Source: an uncultured Methanosarcinales archaeon
Lineage (GTDB): Archaea; Nanobdellota; Nanobdellia; Woesearchaeales; UBA11576
Length of the DNA stretch: 64,000 bases
Direction: 5' to 3'
NCBI GenBank assembly: GCA_964563755.1
Contig: CAZLYC010000001.1
Coordinates: forward strand, 203,548-267,547
Positions 31,097 through 64,000 of this stretch are shown one piece after another. Under the pieces are notes generated by a model that was not told where the DNA came from, did not search any database, and saw only the letters and a program-made list of their open reading frames with translations. Each line of letters starts with the position of its first letter. Position 1 is the stretch's first letter. The position numbers and the translations under genes are program-made.

Positions 31097-31111
31097 CTTT
31101 TCTAACCTCCT

Positions 31112-31468: not shown

Positions 31469-31481
31469 CTTACTGTGTAAG
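31469..31481. promoter_or_regulatory. CTTACTGTGTAAG palindrome (CTTAC-N3-GTAAG) in the promoter region of the surface-protein operon
   Basis: Same 13-bp palindrome family as the five copies at 45032..45204. Lies about 120 bp upstream of the 31348 start on the minus strand. Confidence 0.5.
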
Positions 31482-39019: not shown

Positions 39020-39021
39020 TT

Positions 39022-45204: not shown

Positions 45205-45249
45205 TAAATTTTTGAATATATTACAATATTTTATTTAAGTTATTCGCGG

Positions 45250-45480
45250 GTGTTTGGTATAGTTTCAAAAGAGGACGAAGTAGTAGAGATACCTAGTGCA
45301 ATATTCAGAGATAGAACTAGGGCCCCCCTCGAATCAATTTCTCAGTATCTTAAAGACGTGAAAGGCCTATCTTTCCACGAGATAGCAGTACTTCTAAACC
45401 GCGATGACCGAACAATCTGGACCTGCTACAGCAGAGCGAAAAAGAAACAGCAACAGCAGAATGAGGTGGTCAAGGAATAA
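45250..45480 (+). CDS. Small HTH protein (sigma-70 region-4/LuxR-like helix-turn-helix), GTG start
   Basis: LSFHEIAVLLNRDDRTIWTCYSRAKKK fits the r4-type HTH pattern (E.IA..L...D.T....RA.KK). Its stop overlaps the start of the giant ORF (TAATG). Confidence 0.4.
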   Translation: MFGIVSKEDEVVEIPSAIFRDRTRAPLESISQYLKDVKGLSFHEIAVLLNRDDRTIWTCYSRAKKKQQQQNEVVKE

Positions 45481-48400
45481 TGGCCACAGAAGACAGGATC
45501 AAGGAACTGCAGAGTCAGATAGCAGGACTTGATAGAGAGATTGAGCAAGAGAAAAAAGCAGAACAGAAGATAGCGCAGGAAATAGCAAGAAATGCAGAAA
45601 AAGAAAGAACCGCATCAACACAGAGAACAAACCAAGAAGCAAACAAAGAAAAATCATCAACAAGCATGGTGACATCAGTTGTCGTAATATCTCTCATACT
45701 CATACTCTCCGCGATACTTGTTCTTAAGACTCTAAGTCCTACGGGCTACTCAGTTCTTGCGCAAAACCAAACACCCACAGAACTGCTCCAGGTAGAGCAA
45801 CAGATGCTTGAAGACATGAACGTAGAAGAAGTCATAGCAATCCAAGAGGCAACAGAAAAGAACTACACAGAACCAATCAACGAGACACTGCCGGAAGAGC
45901 CGCAGAATGAGATCATAGAAGAACCAATACCTCAACTTCCAGAGCAGCAGGAGCAGAACGCAACACTGAATGAGACTGCGTCAGAAACAAACACAACAAT
46001 AAACGAGACAATGGCGCCAGTCAACGCGTCAGTCCCTGTTGTAAACGAGACAGTGAACATAACAAACGTGACACTCTACAACGAGACACAGCAAATCAAC
46101 ATAACTCTCAATGAGACAAACATAACAGATGAATTCAATATAACCCTGAACTTAACACTCAATGAAACCAACTTCACAGCAGAACTCAACATAACACTGA
46201 ACGAAACAAACCTCACAGAGCAGCTTAACATAACATTCAACGAGACTAACCTGACATCAGAGCTTAATGCCACACTTAACATAACTAACGAAACAGCAAT
46301 CATATCGGAAGAAAATCTGACAACAGAGACAGGATTACCAGAAGAGCTAATCCAGGGATACGCAAGAGTCGGTCAAGCAGTCAACTGGACAAGAAGAATA
46401 CTGGTCAACACAACAGGGGAGCTCAACATAACACTCAAGCTGCCGAAGCAGACATCAAAAGTAAAGATTTATGAGATAACTGGAGGAGTAGATCCAGCAC
46501 TGGTTGAAGAAGAAGGCCAGACAGAGATATCAGGAAGCACAGTTCTAAACGCTAGACAATGGTCAGACTGGCACGCAAAGATAGGCAAGACAAAGAAACT
46601 CCTCAAATCAGACAAGATAGGCATCAATAATCCTGTTCTTTTGACTCAGCAGTTAGAGGAATCAACAGATTCTGAAACCGACAGCCAAACACCCGCAATA
46701 ATTGGCTATTCTGCATTGAATGTAGAGTCCGGTGAAGGGGTCATGCTGAAATTCCTCAACTGGTTGAGTTCTTTATTCGGAATAACTGGCGCAGCGACAT
46801 TGGATACCGAATCGATACGCCTGACGAGACCGGATGACGGCGCAACAGTCGATAGGAACCTAAACCTGCTATACAGAGCAGCAAAAGACTTTGACTCCTG
46901 CACACTCTACCTTGACGAAAACAAGGTAAAGACAGACGAACTTGTGCTTGAAGGACTCAATTTCTTCCAGCTAAGTAGGATGAGTGATGGAATACACGAC
47001 TGGAAGATAGTCTGCCTCGACAAAAACCGAGAAGTCGAATCAGAGACAAGGACATTCACAGTAGGAACAACAACCATACCAACACCTATACAGCCAATAA
47101 TACCAATCCAGAACGAGACAACACCAGAGCAGAACACAACCCTGCCTGAGAATGAGAGTGTAGAACAGATAGAAGAAGAGACAGAAGAAGCAGAATACAA
47201 CTTTGTCGAAATAAACATAACAGACACAGTTGACGAAGCTCCAAAAGTCTATGAAATCGAGTACCAGACAGCAGGACCAGAGGCATCTGAGCAAGTGCAG
47301 AACCAGTACATAAAGGCAGTAACTGTAGGAAGCGACATAGAATTCAAGAATATAACTGCATACACAGAGCTGCCATGGGTGCCAGAGTGGCTAGTCAAAC
47401 TCTACTGGAGCAACAAAGGTTACGAACAAGTTGAAGATATCAAGCTTATAGACGCAAACCAAGACGGACTTTACGATGCGATGGAATGGACAGTCCCGCA
47501 CCTCTCGAACCAGACCTATGAAGTCAACCTCACTTATGAGATAACGCAGATAAACATAACACACGCAGAAAGGACACCAGAGAACGGAATAAAAGAGGAC
47601 ATAACAGGATATGTAGCAGATGCTGACGGCTCATCAATACAAGTAAACACAAAAGAAATCTATTTCGAGCTCCAGACTGACCTAGCAGAAAACGATACGA
47701 TATCATTCTTTGCAGAAGCTAACAAGAGAAACACGATATTCCTGAAAGATATGGATGGAAATATCATAAGCACACTCACACTAAGCGACAAGAACTGGTC
47801 ATGGTATAACATGACGATAACAGGACTAAGCCTTACGACAAACAAGTTCTACCTAAGTTCAGAATCGCTAGTCAAGTATGACTACATAACAGCATTCGAC
47901 AAGAAGCTCATAATACCAAAGAAGATGGTCGCGCCAAAGAACGTAAGCCTGGTGCTCGCGCAGGATGAAACAGTAGATGTAACCGAAATCAGACAGTTCA
48001 AGCCAGCAGAAGTGATTGTGCAGTCAACCACAGATCAGAACCAGACAGTCCCGATAGCAGAGTTCAGCGTAGAATTCCAGAGCGCAGAACTTGACATAGA
48101 CATGTCAGGACTTGTCGCAGAGACAGACCCTGTCGAAAGGAAATCAGTCATGCACATGGATGAATGGCCTGCAGAAATAAGCCACAACAAGACACTCTAC
48201 ATACCATCACACGGAAGAGGCTCGGTCTATATCTGCCCAGAAGCAAAGAACATAGATGAAGTCAACCAGTTCTGCCCAGGAATAGTGTACTTGAAGCTTG
48301 GAGAGAACAAGATAAACAAGACACAGGAACAGGCACTGCTTCAGATAGAGACAAACGAAACGCTCAACGAAACAATAAATGAGACAAACGGTACAGAGAT

Positions 48401-51400
48401 ACTGAACGAGACAACAGAGCTTAATGAGACGACAGAGCTCAACATGACTTCAAATGAGACAATCCTGGAGATTAATCAGACAATTGAGCAAGATATCAAT
48501 ATCACTGAAAATGTCACAACAGAATTCAACACGACAGAACAGGCAAGCAACGAAACAGCCTATAACGGCACAACAATAATTGTCACAGAAGTTGAAATCA
48601 ACGGCGTCATGTTCTACAAAGTATCCGGACTCACAGGCACAGGAGGCGGAGAGACAATAGAGGTGCTGAACATACACAGCTATCCTATCCTCGGAGGAGT
48701 CTGGACAGTAGACTTCATAACAAAAGGCACAGCGAACCTGACAATAACACCAATAGAGAATACCAGCTGGTCAGAGATGGACACAGACAACATCTTCACG
48801 GCAAACGACCTTGAATTCCTAGAGCTGAGCTGCGGAGAGGAGTCACTAAAAGACAACATCATAGCGATGACAGAGAACGGCACAGCGTTCGATTACGATG
48901 AACTTGCGAACAGCACAGTCAACGTGACGGCAATCATTATCCAGAACTACTCATGCAACCTGACAGGACACCTGAGCAACAAGGAACTCTTATCAGGACA
49001 TCACGCATTCTTCTTCCAGTTTGGAGAAGCGAACGCAACAGCATACAACTATGTCGCAACACTAAGTTGCAGAGTAGCAGCCGCATGTGAATACACAGAG
49101 GTATTAAGACTATCATCAATCACGAACGCCCACGTTGAACTCAGTAACTTCTCAAACTACGAGTACAGTATCTGCTGCAGGGACCTCGGAGGACAGAAGC
49201 TAAGGAACAACTGCTCTGACCCTAGAAATGTCACTATACTGAAAGCATCAGCAGAGACAAACGCCCACGTAGAGAAGATAACCCAGTCTAACTACAATGT
49301 GCCTGTATGCCTCAGTCATGAGAATCGCGACTTGAACATGACATGCGGATATGACAGCGTGAACAACTGCTCAGGATGGCAGGCCTGCGTAGCATCCATC
49401 AGCTCAACAGAGAGAGGAATGGATACAAACCTTGAAGTTGCAGAGTGCGGCTCGCCAAACAATTACACCACAAAGATATGCTGCAATATAGGCACAAACC
49501 AGACAGGACCCTCTCTGCCACCAGCACAGCCTAACCAGACAGGATGCGTAGGACCACATGACGACTTCACGCCTATAGACAACGTTACGCTATGCGCAGG
49601 AACATACTATACCAATGACGCAGCAGGAGACGGACTCATAAAAGTTGGAAGCAATAATGTCACACTGAACTGCAACGGAACCGTAATGGTAGGAAACGGA
49701 GCAGGAATAGGAATATACTCGAATTACAACGTGACGATAAATGGATGTGATGTAAGGAATTATGGGAAAGGAGTTGAGGTAAAAGGCTCCGATTTCCTCA
49801 ACGTAACTCTCAGCTGGAATTCAACAGGTGTGGATATCATTGATGGAATGGCTATAGACTCAGAAAATAATCTTGCTATAGCAGGAAGATGGTTGAACGG
49901 CAGCCAGAATGATTGGGGAATAGCCAGATACTATCCGAATGGAACACAGATTTGGAATAGATCTCTTGTATGGAATGCGACAGCTAGCGATCTGTTAATG
50001 GATATGACATATGATTCTGCAGGCAATCTGATTTCAGTCGGTTGGTGGTTTAACAACAGTTTTTATAGATGGGCCATAGCAAAATATGACTCTTCAGGCA
50101 ATCTATTATTCACCAGCTCTCCAATCTTCAATATCACAAAAAATGAAACCGCAACTGCAGTAGCAACGGATACCCTGAACAACATAATCGTTGTAGGAAG
50201 AAAAGAGTTACGTTCATGGTCTGAGTGGCAGATAGTCAAGTACAACTCAACCGGAAGCTTAATCTGGAATATAACACCTTTATGGAATAATGATTATGGA
50301 AATTTTCTGTATTCTGTAACTACCGATTCCCTTAACAACATAATTGTAGCTGGTGCATGTGTTTGGCCAGCCAAACAAAATTGGTGTGCTGCTAAATATT
50401 ACTCCAATGGAACACAAATATGGAACAGAACTTTCGTCTGGAATGCGACAGGTAGTCAGGAGTACGCAAAAGACGTCGTCATAGATTCAAATGACAATGT
50501 AATACTTGCTGGCAGATGGAGTAATAATGGTAATTATGACTGGAGCGTTATAAAACTCACATCTGACGGAACACAACTATGGAACAAATCATTAAAATGG
50601 GGGGACAGCGTAGATAGCGCTGAAAGCGTGGCTGTAGATTCTAATGATAATATACTTATTGCAGGAAACTGGCGAAGCGGAAGCAATAACGTGTGGGGTG
50701 TTGCAAAATATTATCCTAATGGCACACAAATAACCAACAGAAGTCTATTCTCAGGAAGCAATTCACTAACATATGCTAATGAAGTCGTTGTCGATTCGTC
50801 AGATAATATCATAGTCGCCGGTTCATGGGATAATGGCGGAGGAGACTGGAATTTTATGAAATTAACCCCTGACTTGACCGCTTCAGCATTCACACCCCGA
50901 GTGATATTGAACAATTCGTACATCAGGAATGCAGAAACAGGAGTGACTCTTGATGGAACTTCAAATTCACGAATAACCAACACAACCATAACTGGCACAA
51001 CAACCGGCCTCTACATGTCAGCAGCGAATGGCACAGTGATAACTAATCTTACAGTCTACAATAATACAAACGACATTTATGTTGATGGAACTGCTTCATC
51101 ATTTACGTATAATGCAACAAACATAACATTCGACTCTCCTGCAGGAACACTGCAGAATTACAGCAGATTAACAATATCTGATACTGTAGATGACTCAACA
51201 GCATACTCTTTATCTTGGGCATACATGTCATGGACACCTGTAAAGAGGAAGTCATTCGCACAGAAATTCATAGACCTGACTGCAGAAACAGGAATGCCGA
51301 ACATAGATTCAATGACATGGTACTGGCTCGATTCAGAACTCCCGACATATGATGAACTCAGGTTCCAGGTCTGGCAATTCGACCCAGTATATAGAGGAGG

Positions 51401-57400: not shown

Positions 57401-60400
57401 CGCTGATGGAAGGACTTCTCCATATATACATGCTAACGGAACAGTCTTTACAAAGATATCTGGAAGAAATCTCAATCCGCCTTACCCGAACAAGCTATAT
57501 GTTGGCAACGAGTCAGCAGCTCCTGACCAGAGCATAACAAATGCAACGATGTTCATCTGTAACAATCTCGTGTACGCTTATTATGAGGACAATTCTACTG
57601 CTGACGAGACAAACATGTGGGGTCTAAAGGACCCAGGAATAGTCTTCAAGCCAGGAGCATACGGACTTGCGTTCAGTCCGTCAGGAAAGATAGATGGATA
57701 CGTGAACGGCAAAGGAATTTCTGCAGATGGCACATTTGACCAGTGGCAGCACGTAGTTATGACATATGATGGCGCATACATAAGCATATACGTGAACGGT
57801 CAGCTCAAAGATAGGGACAGATTACAGGGAAGCATATTGCAGAGCACAAGCACGCTCACGATAGGAAAGTATGGCAATGAATACTTCAACGGTTCAATCG
57901 ACGGCCTGAAGATATACGACAGAGCGTTATCTGCGGACCAGATACTGGCAGCTTACCAGAACAGGACTGACAAGATATCGGATGCTGAGACAAGAGGCGG
58001 AGAGACATGGGTTTCAATCCTCACACCGAATGATGGATTTGAGGATGGATCGAGTGTCACAAGCAACGACCTGTTCGTATACAACATAGGTGCTGAAAAC
58101 ATAACGCTCGATTCTTCATTAGGAACAGGAACCATACTTGAGAACCTCACTGTAAAATATAACCTGACGAACGGTTCGACAATTTCGAACATAAACTGGT
58201 TCGTCAACGGAACATCCATTACATTGCTAAACATGCCATTTGACGCATTGACTGCCAAGCATCATGAAATCGAGAGTTCAGTCACCGCAGCATGGCAATT
58301 TGAGGGAGACGCTACAGACAAGAGCTCAAAAGCGCAGCATGGAACAGTCTACGGAGCGACACTATCTGACGGAAAAGTGAAGAACGCATACAGCTTCGAT
58401 GGCAATGATGATTACATAAACGCAGGAACTGTAGCAACAGATTTCACAAACGGAATGACGATAGCAGTTTGGGTATACTATAATTCACTGCCTTCCTGGT
58501 CAAGGATAATTGACTTCGGCCAGAACTCTGGTGATGACAATATACTGATCGCGAACTGGGGCACGACAGACGACCTCGTCTTTGACATATGGAACGGAGC
58601 GACAGATGGAAAAATCACAGCATATGATGCAATCGATATTGGAAAATGGATGCACCTTGCCTTTACAGTAGACTCATCCGGAAACGGCGCCATATACAAG
58701 AACGGCAAGGCAATAAAGACAGGAACCACCAACGTTCCCCCTGCAGTGTCAAGGGACAAGGCGTACATAGGAAAATCAAACTGGGCAGCTGACGCCAACT
58801 TCAGCGGAAATATCGACGAGCTTTATATGTGGAACCGCTCGCTGAACGCTTCAGAAATAAGAGGTGTGTACGAAGAAGGACTTAACAATTATGAAGATAC
58901 TAAAGATTACTCAGGAAACGCAAACACAGGATATGTGAATGGCAGCGCCTGGAACAGCACAGGCGGATTCAATAATACCGGAGCATACCAATTCGATGGA
59001 GTAAATGATTATATCGATCTCAGGAGCTATTTCCCAGATGTCAATATTTCATTCTCTATACTTTTCTGGGTAAAGCCGGGCGCATCACAGGTCACCTATG
59101 CAGACATATTTGGAAACCATGGTGGCTACAAAGGAATGGTCATGCAGCAGGACGCTTCAAACACTAATAGTTTCGGTTGGGGTTATGGCAACGGAACCGC
59201 TTGGGCACCAGGATTGCCTGCAGTACAGCTTATTGCGGACGCATGGCAGCACATAGCAATAGTCAAGAACACGACAAATTGCACACTCTACCTGAATTCA
59301 ATATTCAACGTATCAATTGATTGTTCATCACCATATGTCCCTAATAGCGGAAGAAACATGTGGATAGGCCAGGGATACCAGGGAGGACCAACTGAAAGAT
59401 TCTTCAACGGCAGCATAGACAACTTCATGATATTCAACAGGTCGCTTACATCATCGCAGATACTTGCACTCTACCAGAACAGGACCAACTTCCTCAGCTT
59501 CAACGAAACAAGAGGAGGAGACATGTGGTATGCGGAAGTCACACCAAACGATGGATATGAAGATGGAAGGACGCAGACGACTGGCAACGTGACAATAAAG
59601 GGATGCGCAGTGCCTTATGACGGGTTGGTCTTGACATCGAGCGTTGAACTGTGTCCAGGAACATTCTATGTGAATGATGCTGCAGCCAACGGACTCATTA
59701 ACATATCTGCAAGTAACATAAACATAACATGCTTAGGAACAACTCTTTACGGAAACAACGTAGGGTATGCTTTCATAAACAGTCCGAGTGCAGCCTATAA
59801 TAATATTACAATACAAGGATGCCGGATAGTCAACTATACAAGAGCATATACCTCATCACCTAACTTTGGTGTGAAAAACTTCACTTTCTTCAACAACACT
59901 GTAGTAAATTTCAGCAGTTACGCATTATACTCGCAAGTCTCAGGAGGCCAAAACTGGAATATATCAGGAAACAGATTCTATGGTGTACCAACGAGCGGAT
60001 CATCATATGGTGCATATCTATATTACAATTCTTTCTCCACTGTAGAGAACAATCTGTTCTATTCAAACTATAACGGACTTACAATATACAATTCAGACAA
60101 CACGACAATAAGGAACAACACGTTCAACCAATCAGCAAACGTGGGAGTGTACACTACAGGAATTAATAGTGCGGACTTCCTCACTAATGTAACTATAGAA
60201 TATAATAATTTTACAGCAAGCAGCGGAACTCAACAGATACATATCCTGAACTATGTGCAGAACATAACTATAAGAAACAACAGCTTTAATGCAGGCAGTT
60301 CATACAATATATACGCCACCGGTGCCGGTAACGGAGTCAATGCACATAAGTACATAAACATATCCGACAACAATTTCATTAATGTTGCGTCATCTCAAAT

Positions 60401-63400
60401 ATATTTCTCATACAGCTACAACAGCACTGTTAGGGGGAATAATTTTTCAACTACAACAGGAACGCCTACAGCTTCATTATACGTAACAAGTGATGTGGAT
60501 TACCTTACCGTGTATGACAATAATTTCTTCAGGCAAGGATCTTATGCAATCTATTGCAATGCGGCGGTAGGAGCTGGTGTCAGCTCTTTCCTGAATATAA
60601 CAAATAACCTAATCAACCTGTCCACAAGCCGCGGCATATATCTGTATGACTACTGTGATAATGGGGTGATAACAGGCAATAGTATAAACTCATCAGCAAC
60701 TGCGAACATATATCTATATACAACTGGAACTGTTAACAATACAATATATAATAACTCATTCTATGGCGTACCTGCTGACTATGCATATGTAACAACCACC
60801 CTTACAGGAAACGCATTCAGCAAGAGGATAAACGGCGTCTGGGTAGGAAACTTCTGGGCTGACATAAACTCCAGCAGCATAAGGATATACGACTCGAACC
60901 ATGACGGATACGGAGATACAGGAGGAGAATATCCTTATAATAGCACCAATAGGGCTAATGTATATGGGGATGTAAATGATTACGGTCCAATACTGCCACC
61001 TGATACTGATCAGGATGGAGCGTACGACAGGATAGATTGCGCACCGAACAATGTTACACTGGTTCCTCCATACGATGAGCTCAAAGTCAACACTTCAATG
61101 ACGTTCTGCTCCGGAAGCTATCGCGAAAGAGATGCGGGAGCATTTGGAACAATAAAGATAACGAACAGCAACATAAACCTCTCTTGCAACGGAACAGCAA
61201 TAATAGGAGAAAATACCGGATACGGAATAGTCAACTCATACTCAAATGTTACGATACAGGGATGCAATGTCGGGAATTACAGCACTGCTGCTTTGGCTGG
61301 TGGATTGTGGAATAGGACTTTTGTGTGGAATGCAACAGGCAATGATGTTCCGTATGGTGTTGCTGTAGATTCTTTGGATAACACCTATGTGGCAGGTTAC
61401 TGGTATAATGGTTCCCAATCTGATTGGAGTTTTGTCAAGTATGATTCATATGGAAATTATGTATTCAACAGGACTTTTGTCTGGAATGCAACAGGCAACG
61501 ATTCCGCTCGTGCTGTAGCAATCGATATTTATGGCAACATTTATGTCACTGGCAGTTGGCGTAATGACAGCCAGGATGATTGGGGCTTGGTCAAATATAA
61601 TTCAACTGGAGATTATGTCTGGAACAGAAGTTTTGTCTGGAATTCAACTGGTTCAGATGTAGCTTATGATGTTGCTGTTGATTATTCTGGTAATGTTTAC
61701 GTTACTGGTATTTGGAGAAATGGAACTCAGGGTGACTGGGGACTTGTCAAATGGGATGCTAACGGAAACTATTTGTGGAACATAAGCAAGGTGTGGAGTC
61801 CGACCAATGATGATACTGCTTGGGGCGTTGCAACTGATAGCCAAGGAAATGTAATCGTTGCAGGAGCTTGGCGAAATGGCTCAAGCCATGATTGGGGAAT
61901 CGTTAAATATAGCACTGATGGAGTCCTGCTCTGGAACAGCAGCAGTGGCTGGAGCGGTACACAAACTGATGAAGCATGGGATGTCGCCGTTGATAATCAA
62001 GATAATATTCTGGCTTCTGGAGAATGGAGTGATGCTTTTGGCGAGTATTGGGGTGTCGCCAAGTTCAGAAGTTCTGATGGCTTGTTATTATGGAACAAGA
62101 GTGTGGCGTGGAATCCAACATTCAACGGAATTGCTCTTGGTGTAGATTCTGACAGCAAAAATAACGTATTAATCGGCGGTTACTGTTATGTTGGTTCTTC
62201 TGAGGAATGGTGTGCAGCAAAATTCAGTCCTGATGGTATTATACTATGGAACAGGAGCGTGGTATGGAACGCTACAGGTGACGATTATATTTGGGATGTT
62301 GCTGTTGATAGCTCAGATAATCTGTTGGCTGCAGGTCACTGGAAACGAGGAAATAGAAATACTTGGGGTATCGCTAAGTTGAGCGGTGCAGGTGACATCA
62401 TAACTTCAAATTCCATTTTCATTAATGACACATTTGCAAATAGCACAAAAGGAATAGAATTATCCGGACGCATAACATATACAAACATAACTAATTCAAC
62501 ATTATGGAGCAATACCTATGGAGCTCACCTTGGCAATGAATCTGCAAGAACAACAATAGCACACAGTACAGCAAATGCAAGCACATCAAGAGGAATATAC
62601 GTAGACAAGGCAAATGATACTAGGCTAATCAATGTAACTTTGTATAATACTACAATAGGAATGTATGTAGAGGCAGGACAAAATCCAATCTGGCTGAACA
62701 TAACAGATGCAAGCTTCAGGCCAAATAATGGACTGCTCAATAATTATACAAAACTAAATGTATCGGACATAGTGAATGCCTCAAGCGCATACTCGATAAC
62801 ATGGGCGACAAACACGACGCCATTATCTGAACGCATGCCTCCGTTCAGGTATAAGTTCGTCGACATAACAACACAAGCTGGAGCGACATCGATAGACAGA
62901 GTTACGTGGAGCTGGCTTGACTCAGAACTGACAGGATATGACGAAACAAATTTCACGCTCTGGAAATATACAACGTACTGGGTCAATATAAGTTCACAGC
63001 TGGATACTGCATCAAACACTTTGACTGTCTACAACCTTAATCCGCAGAGCATATATGGAATACTGCAGGATGGAAACGCAGCTCCGACAATAACTAGCGT
63101 GATAGTCAACTCAACTTATGGAATGAATTACACGGACGAGAACATAACTGCTTATGCTTTCGGCATGAGCGACCCGAATAATGACAACATAACGCTCATC
63201 TACAACTGGTTCGTGAACAACAGATCTCTGGCAGTCTTGAATATGCCGTTCGAGGCAGATAACGGTAATGAATATGTCATAGCGAGGGACTTCTCGGATA
63301 TTGGAGAAGATGGAACAGTATATGGAGCGGTGTGGAACAGGACAGGAGGAATAAACAACAGCGGAGCTTACCAGTTCGACGGTGTAAATGACTACATAGA

Positions 63401-64000
63401 CGCGAAGAATGACGATAAATTCAAGATGTTTGATGAAATAACATTGTCTGCATGGGTAAAGACGACGAAAGAAGGATTCATAGTCTCGAAATCACTCGCA
63501 TCAGACATAACTACTATCTATAATTTTTCAAGTTGCGGACAGGCAGGAAGATTCGGGCCTTCACAGGGACAGTGCGATTCAGAATATGTCGGAACAACTC
63601 TTGAGGGATTAGTCACTGTCGGTGGCGGAATACAGAGTTGGACTGTGCCTGCAACAGGCAAATACACAATAGAAACAGTAGGCGCAAGAGGTGGTTTAGG
63701 CACTACTTACGTCGGAGGATCCGGCGCTAGGATGAGAGGTGAATTCTATCTGAATGCAGGCACAGTAATAAAAGTGCTTCCCGGACATGAAGGAGGAAAC
63801 ATAACGGGTTACAAGGCAGGAGGTGGCGGTGGCGGTTCATTTGTAGTATACGCAAACAACACACCTCTAATAATTGCTGGTGGAGGTGGCGGTGGCGGTG
63901 GAAACAGCAATGCTGCGAATGGACAGCCGGGCATTACAGGGACGATGGGTGGAAATGGTTCTATGGGAACATATATTGGCGGAATCAATGGTGCAGGCGG
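45480..64000 (+). CDS. Giant cell-surface protein, more than 6,170 aa and truncated by the window end. Domains: signal-anchor, sequon-repeat stalks, Cys-rich modules, beta-helix, SBBP beta-propeller repeats, about 11 LamG domains and a Gly-rich domain
   Basis: Frame 0 is open from the ATG at 45480 to nt 64000 with no stop, which is why it is missing from the ORF track. Hand translation shows a coiled coil plus TM (45664..45726). Repeated FDGVNDYI...FNGTIDEVxIWNRSLSA modules are LamG. WN.S..WN.T..D.A.DVAVDS.GN repeats are SBBP. Three CxGxYxxNDAAxxGLI...CNGT...NVTIxGCxVxNY modules mark beta-helix starts. Confidence 0.85.
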   Translation, partial: MATEDRIKELQSQIAGLDREIEQEKKAEQKIAQEIARNAEKERTASTQRTNQEANKEKSSTSMVTSVVVISLILILSAILVLKTLSPTGYSVLAQNQTPTELLQVEQQMLEDMNVEEVIAIQEATEKNYTEPINETLPEEPQNEIIEEPIPQLPEQQEQNATLNETASETNTTINETMAPVNASVPVVNETVNITNVTLYNETQQINITLNETNITDEFNITLNLTLNETNFTAELNITLNETNLTEQLNITFNETNLTSELNATLNITNETAIISEENLTTETGLPEELIQGYARVGQAVNWTRRILVNTTGELNITLKLPKQTSKVKIYEITGGVDPALVEEEGQTEISGSTVLNARQWSDWHAKIGKTKKLLKSDKIGINNPVLLTQQLEESTDSETDSQTPAIIGYSALNVESGEGVMLKFLNWLSSLFGITGAATLDTESIRLTRPDDGATVDRNLNLLYRAAKDFDSCTLYLDENKVKTDELVLEGLNFFQLSRMSDGIHDWKIVCLDKNREVESETRTFTVGTTTIPTPIQPIIPIQNETTPEQNTTLPENESVEQIEEETEEAEYNFVEINITDTVDEAPKVYEIEYQTAGPEASEQVQNQYIKAVTVGSDIEFKNITAYTELPWVPEWLVKLYWSNKGYEQVEDIKLIDANQDGLYDAMEWTVPHLSNQTYEVNLTYEITQINITHAERTPENGIKEDITGYVADADGSSIQVNTKEIYFELQTDLAENDTISFFAEANKRNTIFLKDMDGNIISTLTLSDKNWSWYNMTITGLSLTTNKFYLSSESLVKYDYITAFDKKLIIPKKMVAPKNVSLVLAQDETVDVTEIRQFKPAEVIVQSTTDQNQTVPIAEFSVEFQSAELDIDMSGLVAETDPVERKSVMHMDEWPAEISHNKTLYIPSHGRGSVYICPEAKNIDEVNQFCPGIVYLKLGENKINKTQEQALLQIETNETLNETINETNGTEILNETTELNETTELNMTSNETILEINQTIEQDINITENVTTEFNTTEQASNETAYNGTTIIVTEVEINGVMFYKVSGLTGTGGGETIEVLNIHSYPILGGVWTVDFITKGTANLTITPIENTSWSEMDTDNIFTANDLEFLELSCGEESLKDNIIAMTENGTAFDYDELANSTVNVTAIIIQNYSCNLTGHLSNKELLSGHHAFFFQFGEANATAYNYVATLSCRVAAACEYTEVLRLSSITNAHVELSNFSNYEYSICCRDLGGQKLRNNCSDPRNVTILKASAETNAHVEKITQSNYNVPVCLSHENRDLNMTCGYDSVNNCSGWQACVASISSTERGMDTNLEVAECGSPNNYTTKICCNIGTNQTGPSLPPAQPNQTGCVGPHDDFTPIDNVTLCAGTYYTNDAAGDGLIKVGSNNVTLNCNGTVMVGNGAGIGIYSNYNVTINGCDVRNYGKGVEVKGSDFLNVTLSWNSTGVDIIDGMAIDSENNLAIAGRWLNGSQNDWGIARYYPNGTQIWNRSLVWNATASDLLMDMTYDSAGNLISVGWWFNNSFYRWAIAKYDSSGNLLFTSSPIFNITKNETATAVATDTLNNIIVVGRKELRSWSEWQIVKYNSTGSLIWNITPLWNNDYGNFLYSVTTDSLNNIIVAGACVWPAKQNWCAAKYYSNGTQIWNRTFVWNATGSQEYAKDVVIDSNDNVILAGRWSNNGNYDWSVIKLTSDGTQLWNKSLKWGDSVDSAESVAVDSNDNILIAGNWRSGSNNVWGVAKYYPNGTQITNRSLFSGSNSLTYANEVVVDSSDNIIVAGSWDNGGGDWNFMKLTPDLTASAFTPRVILNNSYIRNAETGVTLDGTSNSRITNTTITGTTTGLYMSAANGTVITNLTVYNNTNDIYVDGTASSFTYNATNITFDSPAGTLQNYSRLTISDTVDDSTAYSLSWAYMSWTPVKRKSFAQKFIDLTAETGMPNIDSMTWYWLDSELPTYDELRFQVWQFDPVYRGGHTEGNWTRINYQLDTANNLIRLANLIPQSIYGILDSGNEAPNMTGVSLTSQLGKNYTNESLTALALGLSDLDSDNVTLTYNWFVDDKSIAVLNMPFEARRDENESNWTREYSPYMNDGRVQGPRWNKTAGWNNTGAYEFDGVNDYILVSNFDYDILRQGKETSSWTLEARVKPAGSQNSSEKMIVGRAGCHGGIYAFPSDFRFTIKTTDCWTGSKSITYTPPDMNSWYHLVAVYDNRIMSFYANGVLVGTDIFNATMFNYNTNLYIGGIGTYVFNGTVDSVRIYDRALSADQVKALYENKTYLLTEAETRGRETWKVQITPNDGWEDGPAVMSNSLYVYELAFNNTKLNASRPTNYTNESLTVYTDYLNATNRTIVNWFVDNFSMAVLNMPFDGLSPKHPRTENALVGSWWFEGDANDKSGKGMDGVVTGSTVGDGKVDKAYLFNGVDQSINISNYDSLVNNVTNQMTIGLWVKPVGYPAVGYAEALRKEISYHFSYNAAVPGWDIGFKNETNGQQFPGHIDTSQVPLNKWTHLLLTYDGSTISVYVNGVLSKSANLVFKIGSNNNDNLYIGNYGSSEESGLLSRYFNGSIDEVYIWNRSLSATEIRTIYEEGLNNYEDAKDYSTNGNTGTVVNATWNRTGGPNNTGAYTFDGVDDYIIIDHDGSTDMFDSISVEAWVKVSSLGTEQYPSIAGKQYGGLYPSNNPYALYIQNSDDTLRFGKRNIDGIWGGSAYTSVTPYIGEWIHVVGMLDGTNLRLYVNGEKVSEVSTRIGTQNDDSPVLIGADDNDGNGVADNFFNGTIDIVRIYYRALSAEQITALYANRTYLIPSSETRGGETWQALLTPQDSYEDGTAVYSNPIYIYELALLNTKLNASSVTNYTNQNLTVYTTFANGTNNTIVNWFVDNSSMAVLNMPFEALSQKHHEIDDLMVCALQFEGDATDKSGKGNTGIVNGAVIADAKIKKGYSFDGINDYINISNSQSLQNYTSFTVALWFKYAGRGPQNKQYTTIINKNAIGNGNLDPYHIWVENSSQELIVRLGSGTSAIYMSPLISVNDNKFHHVTVVFDDALDKYYMYFDGRRAATNRVSSSWKPTTNTDSLMIGNWQPYGSYFNGTIDEVMIWNRSLSATEARELYDEGLNNYEDAKDYSSNGNTGNVVNATLNKTGGINNTGAYEFNGVGSYIDINNSLSLQDITESSFTFESWYYPSSLPSTNPTHDQHALVCKRGYHTALRFNSGGSFRFSIWNSLNTAFTVTSSAYPANNWYHVVGVADESTKTITLYVNGQKFGPIHYTGILRDYGNVSTRIGLCNDVGLAYDNMANGTIDGVKIYDRALSQDQVISSYEGRLNVTVEAETRGGETWYAELTPQDGYEDGPIVTSNSIYIYDLALLNTKLNATRVTNYTNENLTVYTTFANGTNMTTVNWFVDNTSMAVLNMPFEPLTKKHHNIEESMVGAWWFEENSRDSSGKGNHGTVDGPAITTVGKVGKAYTFNGLWDTIPTTNSASLNITRAITISVWVKPNTIATNPVLIDKGYSTSYYLQLLSAGQIEFGMDYPEISVQSDTGIVLAGEWSHIVGTYDSSVSVNNLKIYKNGKLVNQFTRTGTGTGNSEILTIGSNIYAGEYFNGTIDEVAIWNRSLSAAEVDHLYADSLDNNDGAKDYSTNGNNANISGAIWTSSEGWNNTGTYQFDGIDDYLEVADSASLKPTEAVSIEVWVKPGRQNFTQERYVVLDYQAEKDVSVMSYVDNNNITYGANSMLLDSGQIGTILASQIAVGDVINGTGPFEAAFIGDGGDMPVPASFAGKEFAYNVTRNPPQNISVCAPFEAANVYLYNSSRSQVATFSLTKGSCNKFSYSFADSWFYMNATGRVVAQAMNTFSDAFVMYPLSDDLWGIASGAGYVAIASNGVNVTYYNSDSTTATAVYNYGNSFSPLGGAGQGSGVATHIVANQPAIGVISSADADGGEAATYYPTKELSYVFGIPQYAQYLAFAATQPNTVCYMKYADGRTSPYIHANGTVFTKISGRNLNPPYPNKLYVGNESAAPDQSITNATMFICNNLVYAYYEDNSTADETNMWGLKDPGIVFKPGAYGLAFSPSGKIDGYVNGKGISADGTFDQWQHVVMTYDGAYISIYVNGQLKDRDRLQGSILQSTSTLTIGKYGNEYFNGSIDGLKIYDRALSADQILAAYQNRTDKISDAETRGGETWVSILTPNDGFEDGSSVTSNDLFVYNIGAENITLDSSLGTGTILENLTVKYNLTNGSTISNINWFVNGTSITLLNMPFDALTAKHHEIESSVTAAWQFEGDATDKSSKAQHGTVYGATLSDGKVKNAYSFDGNDDYINAGTVATDFTNGMTIAVWVYYNSLPSWSRIIDFGQNSGDDNILIANWGTTDDLVFDIWNGATDGKITAYDAIDIGKWMHLAFTVDSSGNGAIYKNGKAIKTGTTNVPPAVSRDKAYIGKSNWAADANFSGNIDELYMWNRSLNASEIRGVYEEGLNNYEDTKDYSGNANTGYVNGSAWNSTGGFNNTGAYQFDGVNDYIDLRSYFPDVNISFSILFWVKPGASQVTYADIFGNHGGYKGMVMQQDASNTNSFGWGYGNGTAWAPGLPAVQLIADAWQHIAIVKNTTNCTLYLNSIFNVSIDCSSPYVPNSGRNMWIGQGYQGGPTERFFNGSIDNFMIFNRSLTSSQILALYQNRTNFLSFNETRGGDMWYAEVTPNDGYEDGRTQTTGNVTIKGCAVPYDGLVLTSSVELCPGTFYVNDAAANGLINISASNINITCLGTTLYGNNVGYAFINSPSAAYNNITIQGCRIVNYTRAYTSSPNFGVKNFTFFNNTVVNFSSYALYSQVSGGQNWNISGNRFYGVPTSGSSYGAYLYYNSFSTVENNLFYSNYNGLTIYNSDNTTIRNNTFNQSANVGVYTTGINSADFLTNVTIEYNNFTASSGTQQIHILNYVQNITIRNNSFNAGSSYNIYATGAGNGVNAHKYINISDNNFINVASSQIYFSYSYNSTVRGNNFSTTTGTPTASLYVTSDVDYLTVYDNNFFRQGSYAIYCNAAVGAGVSSFLNITNNLINLSTSRGIYLYDYCDNGVITGNSINSSATANIYLYTTGTVNNTIYNNSFYGVPADYAYVTTTLTGNAFSKRINGVWVGNFWADINSSSIRIYDSNHDGYGDTGGEYPYNSTNRANVYGDVNDYGPILPPDTDQDGAYDRIDCAPNNVTLVPPYDELKVNTSMTFCSGSYRERDAGAFGTIKITNSNINLSCNGTAIIGENTGYGIVNSYSNVTIQGCNVGNYSTAALAGGLWNRTFVWNATGNDVPYGVAVDSLDNTYVAGYWYNGSQSDWSFVKYDSYGNYVFNRTFVWNATGNDSARAVAIDIYGNIYVTGSWRNDSQDDWGLVKYNSTGDYVWNRSFVWNSTGSDVAYDVAVDYSGNVYVTGIWRNGTQGDWGLVKWDANGNYLWNISKVWSPTNDDTAWGVATDSQGNVIVAGAWRNGSSHDWGIVKYSTDGVLLWNSSSGWSGTQTDEAWDVAVDNQDNILASGEWSDAFGEYWGVAKFRSSDGLLLWNKSVAWNPTFNGIALGVDSDSKNNVLIGGYCYVGSSEEWCAAKFSPDGIILWNRSVVWNATGDDYIWDVAVDSSDNLLAAGHWKRGNRNTWGIAKLSGAGDIITSNSIFINDTFANSTKGIELSGRITYTNITNSTLWSNTYGAHLGNESARTTIAHSTANASTSRGIYVDKANDTRLINVTLYNTTIGMYVEAGQNPIWLNITDASFRPNNGLLNNYTKLNVSDIVNASSAYSITWATNTTPLSERMPPFRYKFVDITTQAGATSIDRVTWSWLDSELTGYDETNFTLWKYTTYWVNISSQLDTASNTLTVYNLNPQSIYGILQDGNAAPTITSVIVNSTYGMNYTDENITAYAFGMSDPNNDNITLIYNWFVNNRSLAVLNMPFEADNGNEYVIARDFSDIGEDGTVYGAVWNRTGGINNSGAYQFDGVNDYIDAKNDDKFKMFDEITLSAWVKTTKEGFIVSKSLASDITTIYNFSSCGQAGRFGPSQGQCDSEYVGTTLEGLVTVGGGIQSWTVPATGKYTIETVGARGGLGTTYVGGSGARMRGEFYLNAGTVIKVLPGHEGGNITGYKAGGGGGGSFVVYANNTPLIIAGGGGGGGGNSNAANGQPGITGTMGGNGSMGTYIGGINGAG
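46076..46303 (+). repeat. Tandem 39-bp repeats encoding about 13-aa N-glycosylation-sequon repeats (NITLNETNxTxEL) within the giant ORF
   Basis: About 5 to 6 imperfect direct repeats are visible in the DNA (…gaactcaacataacactgaacgaaacaaacctcacagag / cagcttaacataacattcaacgagactaacctgacatca…). Confidence 0.7.

What the first reader, a model, noticed from the sequence alone, without database searches (positions are those of the whole stretch)
45480..64000. Giant ORF of more than 6,170 codons open to the end of the window, invisible in the supplied ORF track
Frame 0 has no stop from 45480 to 64000, and the only plus-strand ORFs listed in this span are three short ones in frame 1. Hand translation gives the architecture below.
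- Coiled coil plus TM.
- A sequon-repeat stalk.
- A Cys-rich module.
- Beta-helix start plus SBBP propeller (49560..50900).
- Beta-helix plus a beta-sandwich with YGIL (50900..51640).
- Five double-LamG units (51640..59500), with an inserted unknown domain at 56540..57640.
- A long parallel beta-helix (59580..60900).
- A second beta-helix start plus SBBP propeller (61020..62390).
- A duplicate of the 50900..51900 module (62400..63480).
- A Gly-rich domain.
This is a very large adhesin-like protein, plausibly the organism's main host-contact molecule.
Basis: seen in the sequence. Interest (0 to 1): 0.8.

Follow-up and report, generated by a model that had tools for sequence, protein, structure and literature searches.

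The report
Giant DPANN archaeal surface protein gene
A real gene of more than 6,170 codons in a tiny Woesearchaeota-like (DPANN) archaeon encodes a heavily sugar-coated surface protein built from lectin-like modules; it belongs to a widespread but barely described class probably used to hold on to other cells, and its end lies beyond the window.

Summary
One frame is stop-free from 45465 to 64000, with an ATG at 45480.

The host is a DPANN archaeon of the Woesearchaeota/Nanoarchaeota type. The visible protein is 6,173 aa and about 678 kDa without glycans. It has a 62-aa N-terminal tail without sequons, read as cytoplasmic, one transmembrane helix, and then a sequon-rich region read as the ectodomain. 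N-glycosylation sequons number 275, against 109 expected.

- There are 9 complete LamG domains (1+2+2+2+2), not 5 pairs, apparently looped out of five ~90-aa "frame" domains.
- The 379-aa insert belongs to an un-annotated domain family with 412 cluster representatives.
- The Gly-rich end is homologous to the ALK/LTK ligand-binding domain (E=5e-11) and is cut by the window edge.

The gene is not an orphan or an artefact. A collinear ortholog exists (L081), and dozens of metagenome loci carry related giant ORFs of up to ≥7,332 aa.

New here: a 76-aa HTH gene overlaps the start codon and lies behind five operator-like palindromes. This small-gene/large-gene pairing recurs in related loci.

Verdict: a new member of a known kind. 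The adhesin role is plausible but untested.

The parts
45032..45204 (.). Array of five operator-like palindromes, CTTAC-N3-GTAAG and one-mismatch variants, at 45032, 45070, 45090, 45133 and 45192. It includes two TATA-like boxes at 45116-45127 and 45176-45183, each followed 6-9 nt later by a palindrome.
   Evidence: The window has 7 sites with at most 1 mismatch against 1.3 expected, and 5 of them lie within 172 bp here (exact-pattern test). The sequence was read directly. The block is about 89% identical to the ortholog locus L081, palindromes and TATA boxes included.
45250..45480 (+). Gene for a small helix-turn-helix protein of 76 aa, GTG start, resembling sigma-70 region 4. Its TAA stop overlaps the ATG of the giant gene (TAATG).
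   Evidence: Pfam Sigma70_r4_2 scores E=3e-5 at 24.0 bits, against a gathering score of 25.7. There are 152 homologs, many annotated PF08281 and named Nanoarchaeota or Woesearchaeota where named, including an identical 76-aa protein, P0287. It is 76% identical in L081 at the same position. In the related loci, 26 of 28 family hits abut the 5' end of an ORF of at least 1,000 aa.
45480..64000 (+). Giant ORF with 6,173 codons visible from the ATG and no stop in the window. The visible part is about 678 kDa with pI 4.5.
45480..45725 (+). N-terminal charged helical segment of 62 aa without sequons, read as cytoplasmic, followed by a single hydrophobic helix at aa 64-82 (45669-45725). The helix is followed by PTGYS, a possible signal-peptidase site.
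   Evidence: Kyte-Doolittle score is 2.98 over aa 64-82, and the next-best segment in the protein scores 1.24. There are no sequons before aa 96. The same layout is seen in L081 and many family members. The coiled coil was not tested with a predictor.
45765..46364 (+). Sequon-repeat stalk 1, built on NxT/NxS with a 13-aa unit NITLNETNLTxEL. A second, shorter stalk lies at 48270-48536.
   Evidence: The first 250 aa hold 22 sequons. Tandem Repeats Finder finds periods of 39 and 51 nt at 46098-46267.
46365..49499 (+). Membrane-proximal region with no Pfam or PDB relatives. It comprises blocks A/B (46365-48269), block C (48537-49064) and a Cys-rich module with three TNAHVE-like repeats (49062-49499).
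   Evidence: No Pfam hit at E up to 5 and no PDB sequence hit. It is conserved at 49-68% identity in the L081 ortholog, and block C is also present in 7 further loci.
49500..51536 (+). Module 1: a beta-helix N-terminal cap (49500-49769), a propeller with a ~52-aa repeat (about seven blades inferred) of the DUF5122/SBBP type (49770-50879), then beta-helix turns plus a beta-rich domain ending in YGIL (50880-51536).
   Evidence: Pfam DUF5122 at E=2.5e-9 and Beta_helix at E=1.8e-6. The cap is 36-42% identical to the starts of the other two beta-helix segments, and the blades repeat every ~52 aa.
51537..59594 (+). LamG array: five ~90-aa 'frame' domains. Each frame is split into an N-half (...NWFVDNxSxAVLNMPF) and a C-half (ETRGGETWxxxxTPxDGxEDG) by 1, 2, 2, 2 and 2 Laminin_G_3 domains, giving 9 complete LamG domains.
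   Evidence: Pfam Laminin_G_3 at E down to 4.5e-83. Unit alignment A1 and motif census. Spliced N-half plus C-half aligns to contiguous ~90-aa repeats of P0063 at E=4e-9. About 100 homologous ~315-aa framed units occur in metagenome loci. The nesting is not confirmed by structure: the AF2 model has pLDDT 58.
56553..57689 (+). A 379-aa all-beta domain inserted into the eighth LamG after the strand ...SIEVWVKPG. It belongs to a domain family without Pfam coverage.
59580..60929 (+). Long uninterrupted right-handed parallel beta-helix.
   Evidence: Pfam Beta_helix at E=4.6e-17 and NosD at E=2.9e-13.
61020..63101 (+). Module 2, a duplicate of module 1: beta-helix cap, SBBP/DUF5122 propeller (61305-62429), then beta-helix turns plus the YGIL domain (62430-63101).
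   Evidence: Pfam SBBP at E=8.7e-6. It is 36-57% identical to module 1.
63102..64000 (+). Sixth frame N-half and the start of a tenth LamG (63369-), which after ...ITLSAWVKT runs into an ALK/LTK-type TNF-like/glycine-rich domain (63504-64000). The domain is cut by the window end.
   Evidence: phmmer against the PDB matches ALK and LTK ectodomains (7nwz, 7ls0, 7nx0) at E=5e-11. Database homologs carry PF12810 and are about 300-340 aa when they stand alone. The entry point aligns with the insertion point of the 379-aa domain.
42204..44345 (-). Divergently transcribed 713-aa secreted protein with GNVGIGT repeats. It is the conserved neighbour of the giant gene.
   Evidence: A homolog with 33% identity sits in the same divergent position in L081. 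Repeats are listed. No Pfam hit.

Best explanation
**What it is.** This is a functional gene of a Woesearchaeota-like DPANN archaeon for a giant, N-glycosylated cell-surface protein. The visible part is at least 6,173 aa, and I infer at least about 6,300-6,500 aa in total.

**Topology.**
- The first 62 residues lack sequons and are read as staying in the cytoplasm.
- One hydrophobic helix either anchors the chain or serves as a long signal peptide.
- The rest is exported and decorated at many of its 275 sequons.

**Order of parts, from the membrane outwards.**
1. A glycan-coated stalk.
2. About 1,000 aa of lineage-specific domains.
3. A beta-helix/propeller module.
4. A rod of five small 'frame' domains that carry nine lectin-like LamG domains as side branches, one of which carries a further 379-aa beta-sandwich insert.
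5. A long beta-helix.
6. A second beta-helix/propeller module.
7. A distal LamG carrying an ALK-type TNF-like/glycine-rich domain.

**Most likely function.** It is a long, multivalent binder of glycans or surface proteins on another cell, that is, host or partner attachment. The distal end, which would make first contact, lies at or beyond the window edge.

**Regulation.** Transcription is probably set by the translationally coupled 76-aa HTH protein, acting on the five palindromes that flank two TATA-like boxes.

**Shown here.**
- The gene is real and conserved.
- The host is archaeal and DPANN-like.
- The domain content and order.
- The sequon excess.
- The pairing of the HTH gene with large genes.

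**Inferred.**
- Membrane topology and actual glycosylation.
- The nesting of LamG domains in frame domains.
- The binding function.
- That the HTH protein binds the palindromes.
For: **Real gene.**
- The frame is open over 6,178 codons.
- Pfam domains are found along its length.
- A collinear ortholog has 42-48% identity over about 2,600 aa, with a conserved divergent neighbour.
- An independent assembly is identical over 4.4 kb.

**Archaeal DPANN host.**
- The window holds an archaeal ribosomal protein operon and SecY.
- It holds a fused PriS-PriL primase.
- The best uL3 relatives, at 50-65% identity, are mostly MAGs titled Woesearchaeota, Nanoarchaeota or Nanoarchaeia; many others carry 'uncultured Methanosarcinales' titles that I take to be mislabels.

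**Extracellular and glycosylated.**
- There is one strong TM helix.
- There are no sequons before aa 96.
- Sequons number 275 against 109 +/- 9 in shuffles, or 4.45 per 100 aa, compared with 0-0.5 in the cytoplasmic and integral-membrane housekeeping proteins of the same window.

**Binding-type domains.**
- Laminin_G_3, SBBP/DUF5122 and Beta_helix/NosD.
- An ALK/LTK ligand-binding domain homolog.
- Sub-domains of the insert resemble small beta-sandwich and CBM folds.

**Belongs to a class.**
- 75 metagenome loci carry the same framed LamG unit.
- Many of them hold sequon-rich ORFs of 3,000 to at least 7,332 aa, and most of those whose 5' end is visible have the same N-terminal single-TM layout.

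**Literature.**
- Giant surface proteins of 8,880-9,409 aa are proposed to mediate host interaction in cultured nanohaloarchaea (PMC10266531).
- LamG proteins are expanded in DPANN (PMC5498576).

**Regulator.**
Against: - No binding, localisation, expression or glycosylation data exist for this protein or any close relative.
- The C-terminus is missing, so a second anchor, an enzymatic domain or an ATPase cannot be excluded. Nanohaloarchaeal giants carry an ATPase.
- The motif TGYS after the TM helix fits a signal-peptidase site, so the protein might be released rather than anchored.
- Beta-helix domains are also the fold of many polysaccharide lyases and hydrolases.
- Only about a quarter of related large genes have the HTH partner.
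- The structure model meant to test the LamG-in-frame nesting was of low confidence.
Confidence: 0.6

Rival explanations
1. It is a structural envelope or matrix component. On this reading the giant glycoprotein forms or reinforces the cell's own surface layer or an extracellular matrix, and the LamG and propeller domains mediate self-assembly rather than recognition of another cell.
For: [quoted passage not shown] This comes from a reference cited in PMC5498576.
- Glycosylation potential is very high.
- The gene sits in a cluster with four other large secreted proteins.
Against: - A single-copy 680-kDa monomer is an unlikely lattice unit.
- The family evolves fast (42-48% identity in the ortholog), while the promoter/HTH cassette is 78-89% identical. 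That pattern is more typical of interaction proteins than of structural ones.
- Related genomes hold several different versions.
Confidence: 0.2
2. It is a tethered polysaccharide-processing platform. On this reading the beta-helix segments are active glycan lyases or hydrolases, and the LamG, propeller and insert domains act as carbohydrate-binding modules that feed them. The purpose would be nutrient scavenging or breaching a host wall.
For: - Beta_helix/NosD hits.
- One family member of the insert domain is fused to a sulfatase, P0158.
- Giant proteins of predatory Omnitrophota are proposed to combine attachment and carbohydrate degradation (bioRxiv 10.1101/2023.11.21.568195).
Against: - No catalytic family was detected: no glycoside hydrolase, polysaccharide lyase, peptidase or sulfatase model hits the 6,173 aa.
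- No catalytic residues could be assigned.
- PDB sequence searches of the propeller/beta-helix module found nothing.
Confidence: 0.12
3. It is an assembly artefact or a decaying pseudogene. On this reading a chimeric or collapsed repeat assembly happens to stay in frame, or the gene is no longer functional.
For: - The window ends inside the gene, so its integrity downstream is unknown.
- The gene is internally repetitive at the domain level.
Against: - A chance open frame has a probability of about 1e-163.
- No repeat pair exceeds about 75% DNA identity within the giant gene (81% anywhere in the window).
- An independent assembly is identical over 44928-49376.
- The ortholog is collinear over 2,600 aa.
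- The sequon excess and domain integrity are maintained to the last codon.
Confidence: 0.03

Closest known systems
Giant membrane-anchored surface proteins of Nanohaloarchaeota (the 'SPEARE' proteins; SVXNc_0300 at 9,409 aa and BNXNv_0298 at 8,880 aa; PMC10266531)
   Same: - DPANN host.
- Size class of thousands of residues.
- N-terminal export or anchor signal.
- Acidic ectodomain made of adhesion-type beta domains.
- Proposed role in host contact.
   Different: - Those proteins are described as Ig-like/fibronectin arrays ending in a VirB4/TraG-like ATPase, with a second VirB4 ATPase gene downstream.
- Here the modules are LamG, SBBP propellers, beta-helices and an ALK-type domain.
- No ATPase is seen in the 6,173 aa visible.
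- The flanking genes differ.
- Direct sequence comparison was not possible with these tools.
LamG (Laminin_G_3, PF13385) surface proteins expanded in DPANN genomes (for example Mia14, PMC5498576, and nanohaloarchaeal SVXNc_0801-0831, PMC10266531)
   Same: - Concanavalin-A-like LamG domains, secreted and multi-copy.
- Proposed binding of glycans or glycoproteins of the host.
   Different: - Described examples have up to about five LamG domains and are far smaller.
- Here nine to ten LamG domains sit in a conserved 'framed' ~315-aa unit.
- They are combined with propellers, beta-helices and nested inserts in one chain of more than 6,000 aa.
Unnamed metagenomic family of giant ORFs built from the framed LamG unit (loci L081-L155; for example L103 at >=7,298 aa, L136 at >=7,332 aa, L112 at 5,601 aa complete, and L157 at 7,282 aa)
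   Same: - The same unit motifs (S[MIL][AT][VL]LNMPF and NNTGAYxFD).
- Sequon richness of 3-9 per 100 aa.
- N-terminal single TM helix.
- Often the same upstream HTH gene.
- L081 is a true collinear ortholog.
   Different: - Outside L081, the order and choice of accessory domains differ.
- Some members have a C-terminal TM helix as well.
- None of the fetched loci has the 379-aa insert or the ALK-type domain.
Extracellular TNF-like/glycine-rich ligand-binding domain of metazoan ALK and LTK receptor kinases (PDB 7nwz, 7ls0, 7nx0; Pfam PF12810)
   Same: - Clear sequence homology over the first ~100 residues, at E=5e-11. This includes the CGxxGxxGPxQxxC start and the GIQxWxVPATGxYxI strand.
- Runs of glycine follow, as in ALK.
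   Different: - Here the domain is not part of a receptor kinase.
- It appears to be entered from a LamG loop.
- It is truncated by the window.
- PF12810 is already known from many bacterial secreted proteins, so its presence in a prokaryote is not new in itself.
Giant extracellular proteins of bacteria (Omnitrophota giant genes, bioRxiv 10.1101/2023.11.21.568195; Apilactobacillus Giant1-5, PMC12863079)
   Same: - Very long, mostly extracellular, modular chains.
- Implicated in attachment to other cells.
- Found in small-genome organisms.
   Different: - Different domain of life and no homology of architecture.
- Omnitrophota giants have many TM helices and SecA-like domains, which are absent here.

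Membership tests
Laminin_G_3 / concanavalin-A-like lectin superfamily (PF13385) | Significant match to the family profile above the gathering score | tested here: met
   E values run from 3.7e-46 to 4.5e-83 per 800-aa tile, with bit scores of 128-277 against a cut-off of 27.6. Nine complete copies were counted by their N- and C-terminal motifs.
SBBP / DUF5122 beta-propeller repeats (PF06739, PF17164) | Repeat profile match and tandem blades of about 50 aa | tested here: met
   DUF5122 scores 37.7 bits (cut-off 27) in propeller 1. SBBP scores 26.0 bits (cut-off 20.5) in propeller 2. A ~52-aa periodicity over about 370 aa is seen in both. The blade number of about seven is inferred, not modelled.
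Right-handed parallel beta-helix (PF13229 Beta_helix; PF05048 NosD) | Profile match above the gathering score | tested here: met
   The long helix at 59.6-60.9 kb scores 62.5 and 50.2 bits. The segment after propeller 1 scores 28.1 bits against a cut-off of 25.9.
ALK/LTK glycine-rich domain family (PF12810; TNF-like plus polyglycine-helix module) | Sequence homology to the solved ALK/LTK ectodomain | tested here: met
   phmmer gives E=5e-11 and 46 bits to 7nwz, 7mzy, 7nx0 and 7ls0 over query residues 29-126. The best database homologs are annotated PF12810.
ALK/LTK glycine-rich domain family (PF12810; TNF-like plus polyglycine-helix module) | Complete domain of about 300 aa with several polyglycine stretches, and a direct match to the Pfam model | tested here: inconclusive
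   Only about 165 residues lie inside the window. Two Gly runs are visible. hmmscan with Pfam gave no hit even at E up to 5.
Nanohaloarchaeal giant 'SPEARE'-type proteins | Giant size with an N-terminal export signal and a predicted extracellular bulk | tested here: met
   At least 6,173 aa, one N-terminal TM helix and a sequon-rich remainder.
Nanohaloarchaeal giant 'SPEARE'-type proteins | Distal VirB4/TraG-like ATPase domain and an adjacent VirB4-type ATPase gene (PMC10266531) | tested here: inconclusive
   No ATPase family hits the visible 6,173 aa. The C-terminus and the downstream genes lie outside the window.
Nanohaloarchaeal giant 'SPEARE'-type proteins | Sequence homology to SVXNc_0300, BNXNv_0298 or the Nanohaloarchaeum antarcticus protein | not tested
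None of the homology searches returned a named nanohaloarchaeal protein.
Framed-LamG giant ORF family (metagenomic, unnamed) | Repeated ~315-aa unit: N-half motif ...NWxxNGxSIAVLNMPFE, then LamG, then C-half motif ETxxGxxWxxxVTPNDGxxDG | tested here: met
   Five complete units plus one started. 75 loci were found with these motifs. About 100 full-length unit homologs at 26-43% identity were found.
Sigma-70 region 4 type HTH (PF08281), for the upstream 76-aa protein | Profile match above the gathering score | tested here: inconclusive
   24.0 bits against a gathering score of 25.7, with E=3e-5. Many homologs at 60-80% identity carry a precomputed PF08281 hit, and one is named 'sigma factor-like helix-turn-helix DNA-binding protein' by NCBI.
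DGR-diversified surface proteins of DPANN/CPR | A template/variable repeat pair and a nearby reverse transcriptase | tested here: not met
   No near-identical repeat pair occurs anywhere in the 64-kb window; the best pairs are 75-81% identical. No RT domain was found among the ORFs scanned. The part of the gene beyond the window is not covered.

The most novel reading that the evidence does not exclude
Giant adhesin-like genes of Woesearchaeota-type DPANN archaea form a conserved two-part cassette. The first part is a tiny sigma-70-region-4-like HTH protein, translationally coupled to the giant gene. It would autoregulate the operon through an array of short palindromes placed around tandem TATA boxes. 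The second part is a fast-evolving giant glycoprotein in which lectin domains, and even an ALK-type ligand-binding domain, are nested as loop insertions in a rod of small frame domains. If so, DPANN cells would have a dedicated, possibly switch-like, control of host attachment. They would also have a modular 'bottle-brush' way of building multivalent binders. Neither has been described in the papers I could search.
Probability: 0.35. Interest if true: 0.6.

Novelty: new member of a known kind. Interest (0 to 1): 0.45.

Why it matters
DPANN archaea make up a large share of archaeal diversity and are thought to live attached to other cells. How they recognise and hold a partner is largely unknown, and for Woesearchaeota there is no cultured host-symbiont pair.

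This gene, its ortholog and about 75 related loci define a concrete candidate family for that contact. The family has a recognisable repeat unit that can be used to find and count such genes in fragmented metagenomes.

Two side results give handles for experiments.
- A small HTH protein with a defined palindromic site could be tested in vitro without culturing the organism.
- Two soluble domains could be expressed and screened for ligands: the 379-aa insert family, which has 412 cluster representatives and no annotation, and the ALK-type domain.

None of this overturns current views. It adds a well-dissected example and a regulatory lead.

Tried and rejected
**Finding the stop codon.** None of these gave DNA past position 64000.
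- Exact-protein look-ups of two neighbours found nothing.
- A genome-collection scan with the C-terminal 533 aa found nothing.
- A metagenome scan with the last 57 nt of the window found nothing.
- The identical HTH protein P0287 is on a 303,349-nt NCBI contig, but only a 4.4-kb Logan contig could be fetched.

**Homology searches that failed or were uninformative.**
- Whole-protein searches failed: one exceeded the 5,000-aa limit and one timed out.
- The word-indexed search of aa 296-930 returned one weak hit. This was probably because sequon-like words saturated the candidate list, since the ortholog L081 was found later by another route.

**Pfam and PDB at permissive thresholds.** Nothing was found for the N-terminal 1,340 aa, the insert, the YGIL domain or the Gly-rich end.

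**Structure test of the LamG-in-frame nesting.**
- The 8-sequence alignment gave pLDDT 58, with the C-half unmodelled.
- The nesting therefore rests on sequence evidence only.

**Other attempts.**
- The AlphaFold-database fold library was unavailable.
- I looked among the GRD homologs for a GRD nested in a LamG. I found none, so that nesting is an inference from the alignment position alone.
- I considered a DGR-type diversification target. There is no template/variable repeat in the window.
- I considered a viral or island origin because of the Peptidase_S74 neighbours. GC content of the gene (0.41-0.46) matches the rest of the window, and the gene lies 28 kb from the ribosomal protein operon.
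- The 59-aa ORF upstream of orf713 looked AbrB-like by eye, but Pfam does not support that.
Full report
**1. The observation**

The frame that contains 45480 is free of stop codons from 45465 to the last base of the window, which is 6,178 codons.
- With the window's base composition, about 5.9% of random codons would be stops. A chance run of this length therefore has a probability near 1e-163.
- The first ATG is at 45480 and is preceded by GAGGTGG.
- The ORF lister omits ORFs that run off the source.
- GC content of the gene (0.41-0.46) is that of the rest of the window.

**2. Is it a sound assembly and a live gene?**

- Internal repeats are old. DNA copies are 62-75% identical and protein copies 25-67%. 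Repeat collapse is therefore unlikely.
- A separate per-run assembly (Logan, SRR14492172) is 100% identical to 44928-49376.
- A metagenome contig, L081 (Ga0105099_10002455), carries a collinear ortholog. Residues 83-2653 align at 42-48% identity, and a homolog of the divergent upstream neighbour orf713 sits in the same place.
- Recognisable domains continue to the last codon.
- The pseudogene or artefact reading is therefore very unlikely for the part that can be seen. The 3' end could not be reached.

**3. The organism**

- The window carries an archaeal ribosomal protein operon (uL3, uL4, uL2, uS3, eS4 and others), SecY, an XPF/ERCC4 nuclease and a fused PriS-PriL primase.
- In a scan of one genome per species, the best uL3 relatives reach only 50-65% identity.
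- Most of those with an informative title are MAGs titled Woesearchaeota, Nanoarchaeota, Nanoarchaeia or Nanobdellota. Many others, including the best hit, carry 'uncultured Methanosarcinales' titles that I take to be mislabels.
- The host is therefore a DPANN archaeon of that group, without a close sequenced species representative.

**4. Anatomy of the protein** (aa numbers count from the ATG)

*N-terminus and topology*
- aa 1-62 form a charged, helix-prone tail without sequons.
- aa 64-82 form the only strongly hydrophobic segment. Its Kyte-Doolittle score is 2.98, and the next best is 1.24.
- The first sequon is at aa 96.

*Sequon excess*
- The chain has 275 N-x-S/T sequons against 109 +/- 9 in shuffled versions.
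- That is 4.45 per 100 aa, against 0-0.5 in cytoplasmic and integral-membrane housekeeping proteins of the same window.
- This pattern is the basis for placing everything after the helix outside the cell.

*Membrane-proximal part*
- Two sequon stalks are present (45765-46364 and 48270-48536).
- About 1,000 aa have no Pfam or PDB relatives, including a Cys-rich module with three TNAHVE-like repeats.
- These regions are conserved at 49-68% identity in L081.

*Module 1 (49500-51536)*
- It comprises a beta-helix cap, a DUF5122/SBBP propeller with a ~52-aa repeat (about seven blades inferred), beta-helix turns and a beta-rich domain ending in YGIL.

*LamG region (51537-59594)*
- It holds nine complete Laminin_G_3 domains in the pattern 1+2+2+2+2.
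- Each group is bracketed by an N-half (...NWFVDNxSxAVLNMPF) and a C-half (ETRGGETW...TPxDGxEDG).
- When the LamG domains are cut out, N-half plus C-half align end to end with contiguous ~90-aa repeats of another protein, P0063, at E=4e-9.
- The simplest reading is that LamG domains are loop insertions in a small 'frame' domain, giving a rod with lectin side branches.
- A structure model meant to test this was poor (pLDDT 58). The nesting is inferred, not shown.

*The 379-aa insert (56553-57689)*
- The eighth LamG carries this insert after its third strand.
- An exhaustive search found 412 cluster representatives of the domain, in proteins of up to 7,853 aa, with no Pfam model.
- Its AF2 model is confident (pLDDT 87.5) and all-beta.
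- Foldseek finds nothing for the whole domain.

*Distal part*
- A long NosD-type beta-helix follows (59580-60929).
- Module 2 (61020-63101) is 36-57% identical to module 1.
- A sixth frame N-half comes next, and a tenth LamG starts at 63369.
- After the strand ITLSAWVKT, the same position as the 379-aa insert, the chain enters a domain homologous to the TNF-like/glycine-rich ligand-binding domain of ALK and LTK, at E=5e-11 to 7nwz, 7ls0 and 7nx0.
- Stand-alone relatives of that domain are about 300-340 aa and carry PF12810.
- About 165 residues of it are visible. The protein must therefore continue by at least ~150 aa, and by ~300 or more if the LamG and frame resume.
- I found no other example of this domain nested in a LamG.

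**5. The class it belongs to**

- A metagenome scan with the unit alignment returned 75 loci.
- Their longest ORFs are sequon-rich (mostly 3-6 per 100 aa) and often giant:
  - at least 7,332 aa (L136);
  - at least 7,298 aa (L103);
  - at least 6,867 aa (L122);
  - at least 6,002 aa (L092);
  - 5,601 aa (L112) and 5,481 aa (L109), both complete.
- About 100 full-length ~315-aa framed units were recovered from them.
- Most members whose 5' end is visible have a short N-terminal tail and one TM helix. Some also have a C-terminal TM helix.
- Published work already describes giant surface proteins (8,880-9,409 aa) and LamG expansions in DPANN and proposes host contact as their role (PMC10266531, PMC5498576).
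- Giant genes are reported as rarer in archaea than in bacteria (bioRxiv 10.1101/2023.11.21.568195).
- The present gene is thus a new, well-resolved member of a known kind. Its module set differs from the nanohaloarchaeal examples.

**6.

*The small gene*
- A 76-aa ORF at 45250-45480 ends with a TAA that overlaps the giant's ATG.
- It is a sigma-70-region-4-like HTH: 24.0 bits against a cut-off of 25.7, and its homologs are annotated PF08281.

*The palindromes*
- Upstream, five copies of CTTAC-N3-GTAAG or one-mismatch variants lie within 172 bp.
- Two of them sit 6-9 nt after TATA-like boxes.
- The window as a whole has 7 such sites against 1.3 expected.

*Conservation*
- The whole 330-nt block is about 89% identical in L081, and the HTH protein is 76% identical. 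The best-conserved coding parts of the giant are only 67-69% identical in DNA.

*Recurrence*
- A profile of the HTH family found 28 hits in about 1 Mb of related loci.
- 26 of these abut the 5' end of an ORF of at least 1,000 aa on the same strand, often as a tandem pair.
- 15 of 56 such large ORFs have the HTH partner.
- Two look-ups that started from HTH homologs alone again landed in front of genes of 2,845 and 1,651 aa. One of them sits beside a 7,282-aa LamG/beta-helix gene.
- Other lineages show their own repeated short motifs after TATA-like boxes.

*Reading*
- I read this as a dedicated autoregulatory switch. That the protein binds these sites is inference.
- I found no paper describing the pairing in the searchable library.

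**7. Function**

- The domain types are those of carbohydrate and protein binders. They include lectin-like LamG domains, propellers, beta-helices and a ligand-binding domain type.
- They are combined with a single N-terminal anchor, dense glycosylation potential, a DPANN host and fast divergence.
- Together these make multivalent attachment to another cell the best-supported role (confidence 0.6).
- If the anchor is N-terminal, the distal, first-contact end is the part at and beyond the window edge.
- The rivals are:
  - a structural envelope role (0.2);
  - a tethered glycan-degrading platform (0.12; no catalytic family detected);
  - an artefact or pseudogene (0.03).
- Whether the N-terminal helix is kept as an anchor or removed at the TGYS motif is open.

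**8. Verdict**

The architecture is right apart from the LamG count, the adhesin role is plausible, and the 'main host-contact molecule' claim is untested.
- Novelty: new member of a known kind. Three leads are worth following: the HTH/operator cassette, the nested build and the un-annotated 379-aa domain family.
- Interest: 0.45.

Noticed in passing
window 32371-42204 (- strand): Three paralogous secreted proteins of 1,060-1,140 aa, each with 5-6 LVIVD beta-propeller repeats. Two end in a Peptidase_S74 (endosialidase intramolecular chaperone) domain, as in trimeric phage tail spikes. Together with orf713 they form a surface-protein cluster divergent from the giant gene.
   Followed up: partly
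window 42204-44345 (- strand); L081 4-933: orf713 is a secreted 713-aa protein with repeated ...GNVGIGT... motifs and no Pfam hit. Its homolog (33% identity) occupies the same divergent position next to the giant gene's ortholog. A 59-aa ORF (44342-44521, -) overlaps its start, and the region 44188-44540 is 75% identical in DNA to L081.
   Followed up: partly
window 31469-31481: This is the only perfect CTTAC-N3-GTAAG palindrome outside the giant gene's promoter. On the - strand it lies just upstream of a TTTAAATA box, a 78-aa TM protein ORF and the sequon-rich gene at 30395-31096. The same HTH protein may therefore control a small regulon.
   Followed up: no
window 27950-28688 and 30363-31113 (- strand): A duplicated segment (75-81% DNA identity) encodes two paralogous ~230-aa proteins. 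Their N-termini look pilin-like or signal-anchor-like (MDxxSNKTLATLLVVAIVxSLAGTFFAxRG). They have 4.3-4.8 sequons per 100 aa, as rich as the giant protein.
   Followed up: no
window 1408-3021 (+ strand): A single 537-aa protein carries both the DNA primase small-subunit (PriS) and large-subunit (PriL) domains. From my own knowledge, such a fusion is a trait reported for Nanoarchaeota and DPANN lineages.
   Followed up: partly
window 45714-45728 and 46740-46799; N-termini of L081, L083, L109, L128, L147, L082: A motif (I/L/P)TG(Y/F/A)(A/S) follows the N-terminal TM helix in many family members and fits a signal-peptidase -3/-1 site. A second, weakly hydrophobic copy (FLNWLSSLFGITGAA, aa 421-439) lies inside the ectodomain and is conserved in L081.
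   Followed up: no
L092, L101, L142, L143 (ORF starts) and protein P0001: A different conserved cytoplasmic N-terminal motif, MVYKKYIKRNGKLYGPYxYH..., precedes the TM helix in several other giant ORFs of the family. These lack the upstream HTH gene, so this may be an alternative cytoplasmic module.
   Followed up: no
L119, L086, L135, L125, L089, L118, L124 (300 nt upstream of their HTH genes): Each lineage has its own 3-5 copies of a short repeated motif (for example ACACACAnnGTAGGA in L119 and L086, and CTACAnAnTAGnA in L135 and L125). The motif often sits a few bases after a TATA-like box, mirroring the palindrome array of the window.
   Followed up: partly
L157 1-8608 and 10001-19294; L158 10001-20207: Loci reached from HTH homologs alone hold more very large genes. 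L157 has a 7,282-aa LamG/beta-helix protein and a 2,845-aa protein. L158 has a 1,651-aa protein and a 2,677-aa protein with LysM and Hint/intein-like domains.
   Followed up: no
window 21263-25845 (- strand): Two MacB/FtsX-type permease genes, a 457-aa secreted protein and an ABC ATPase form an export-type operon between the housekeeping genes and the surface-protein cluster.
   Followed up: no
protein P0158: One member of the 379-aa insert-domain family is fused to a sulfatase domain. Others follow DUF2341 or sit inside LamG_3, which hints at a glycan-related role for this un-annotated domain.
   Followed up: no
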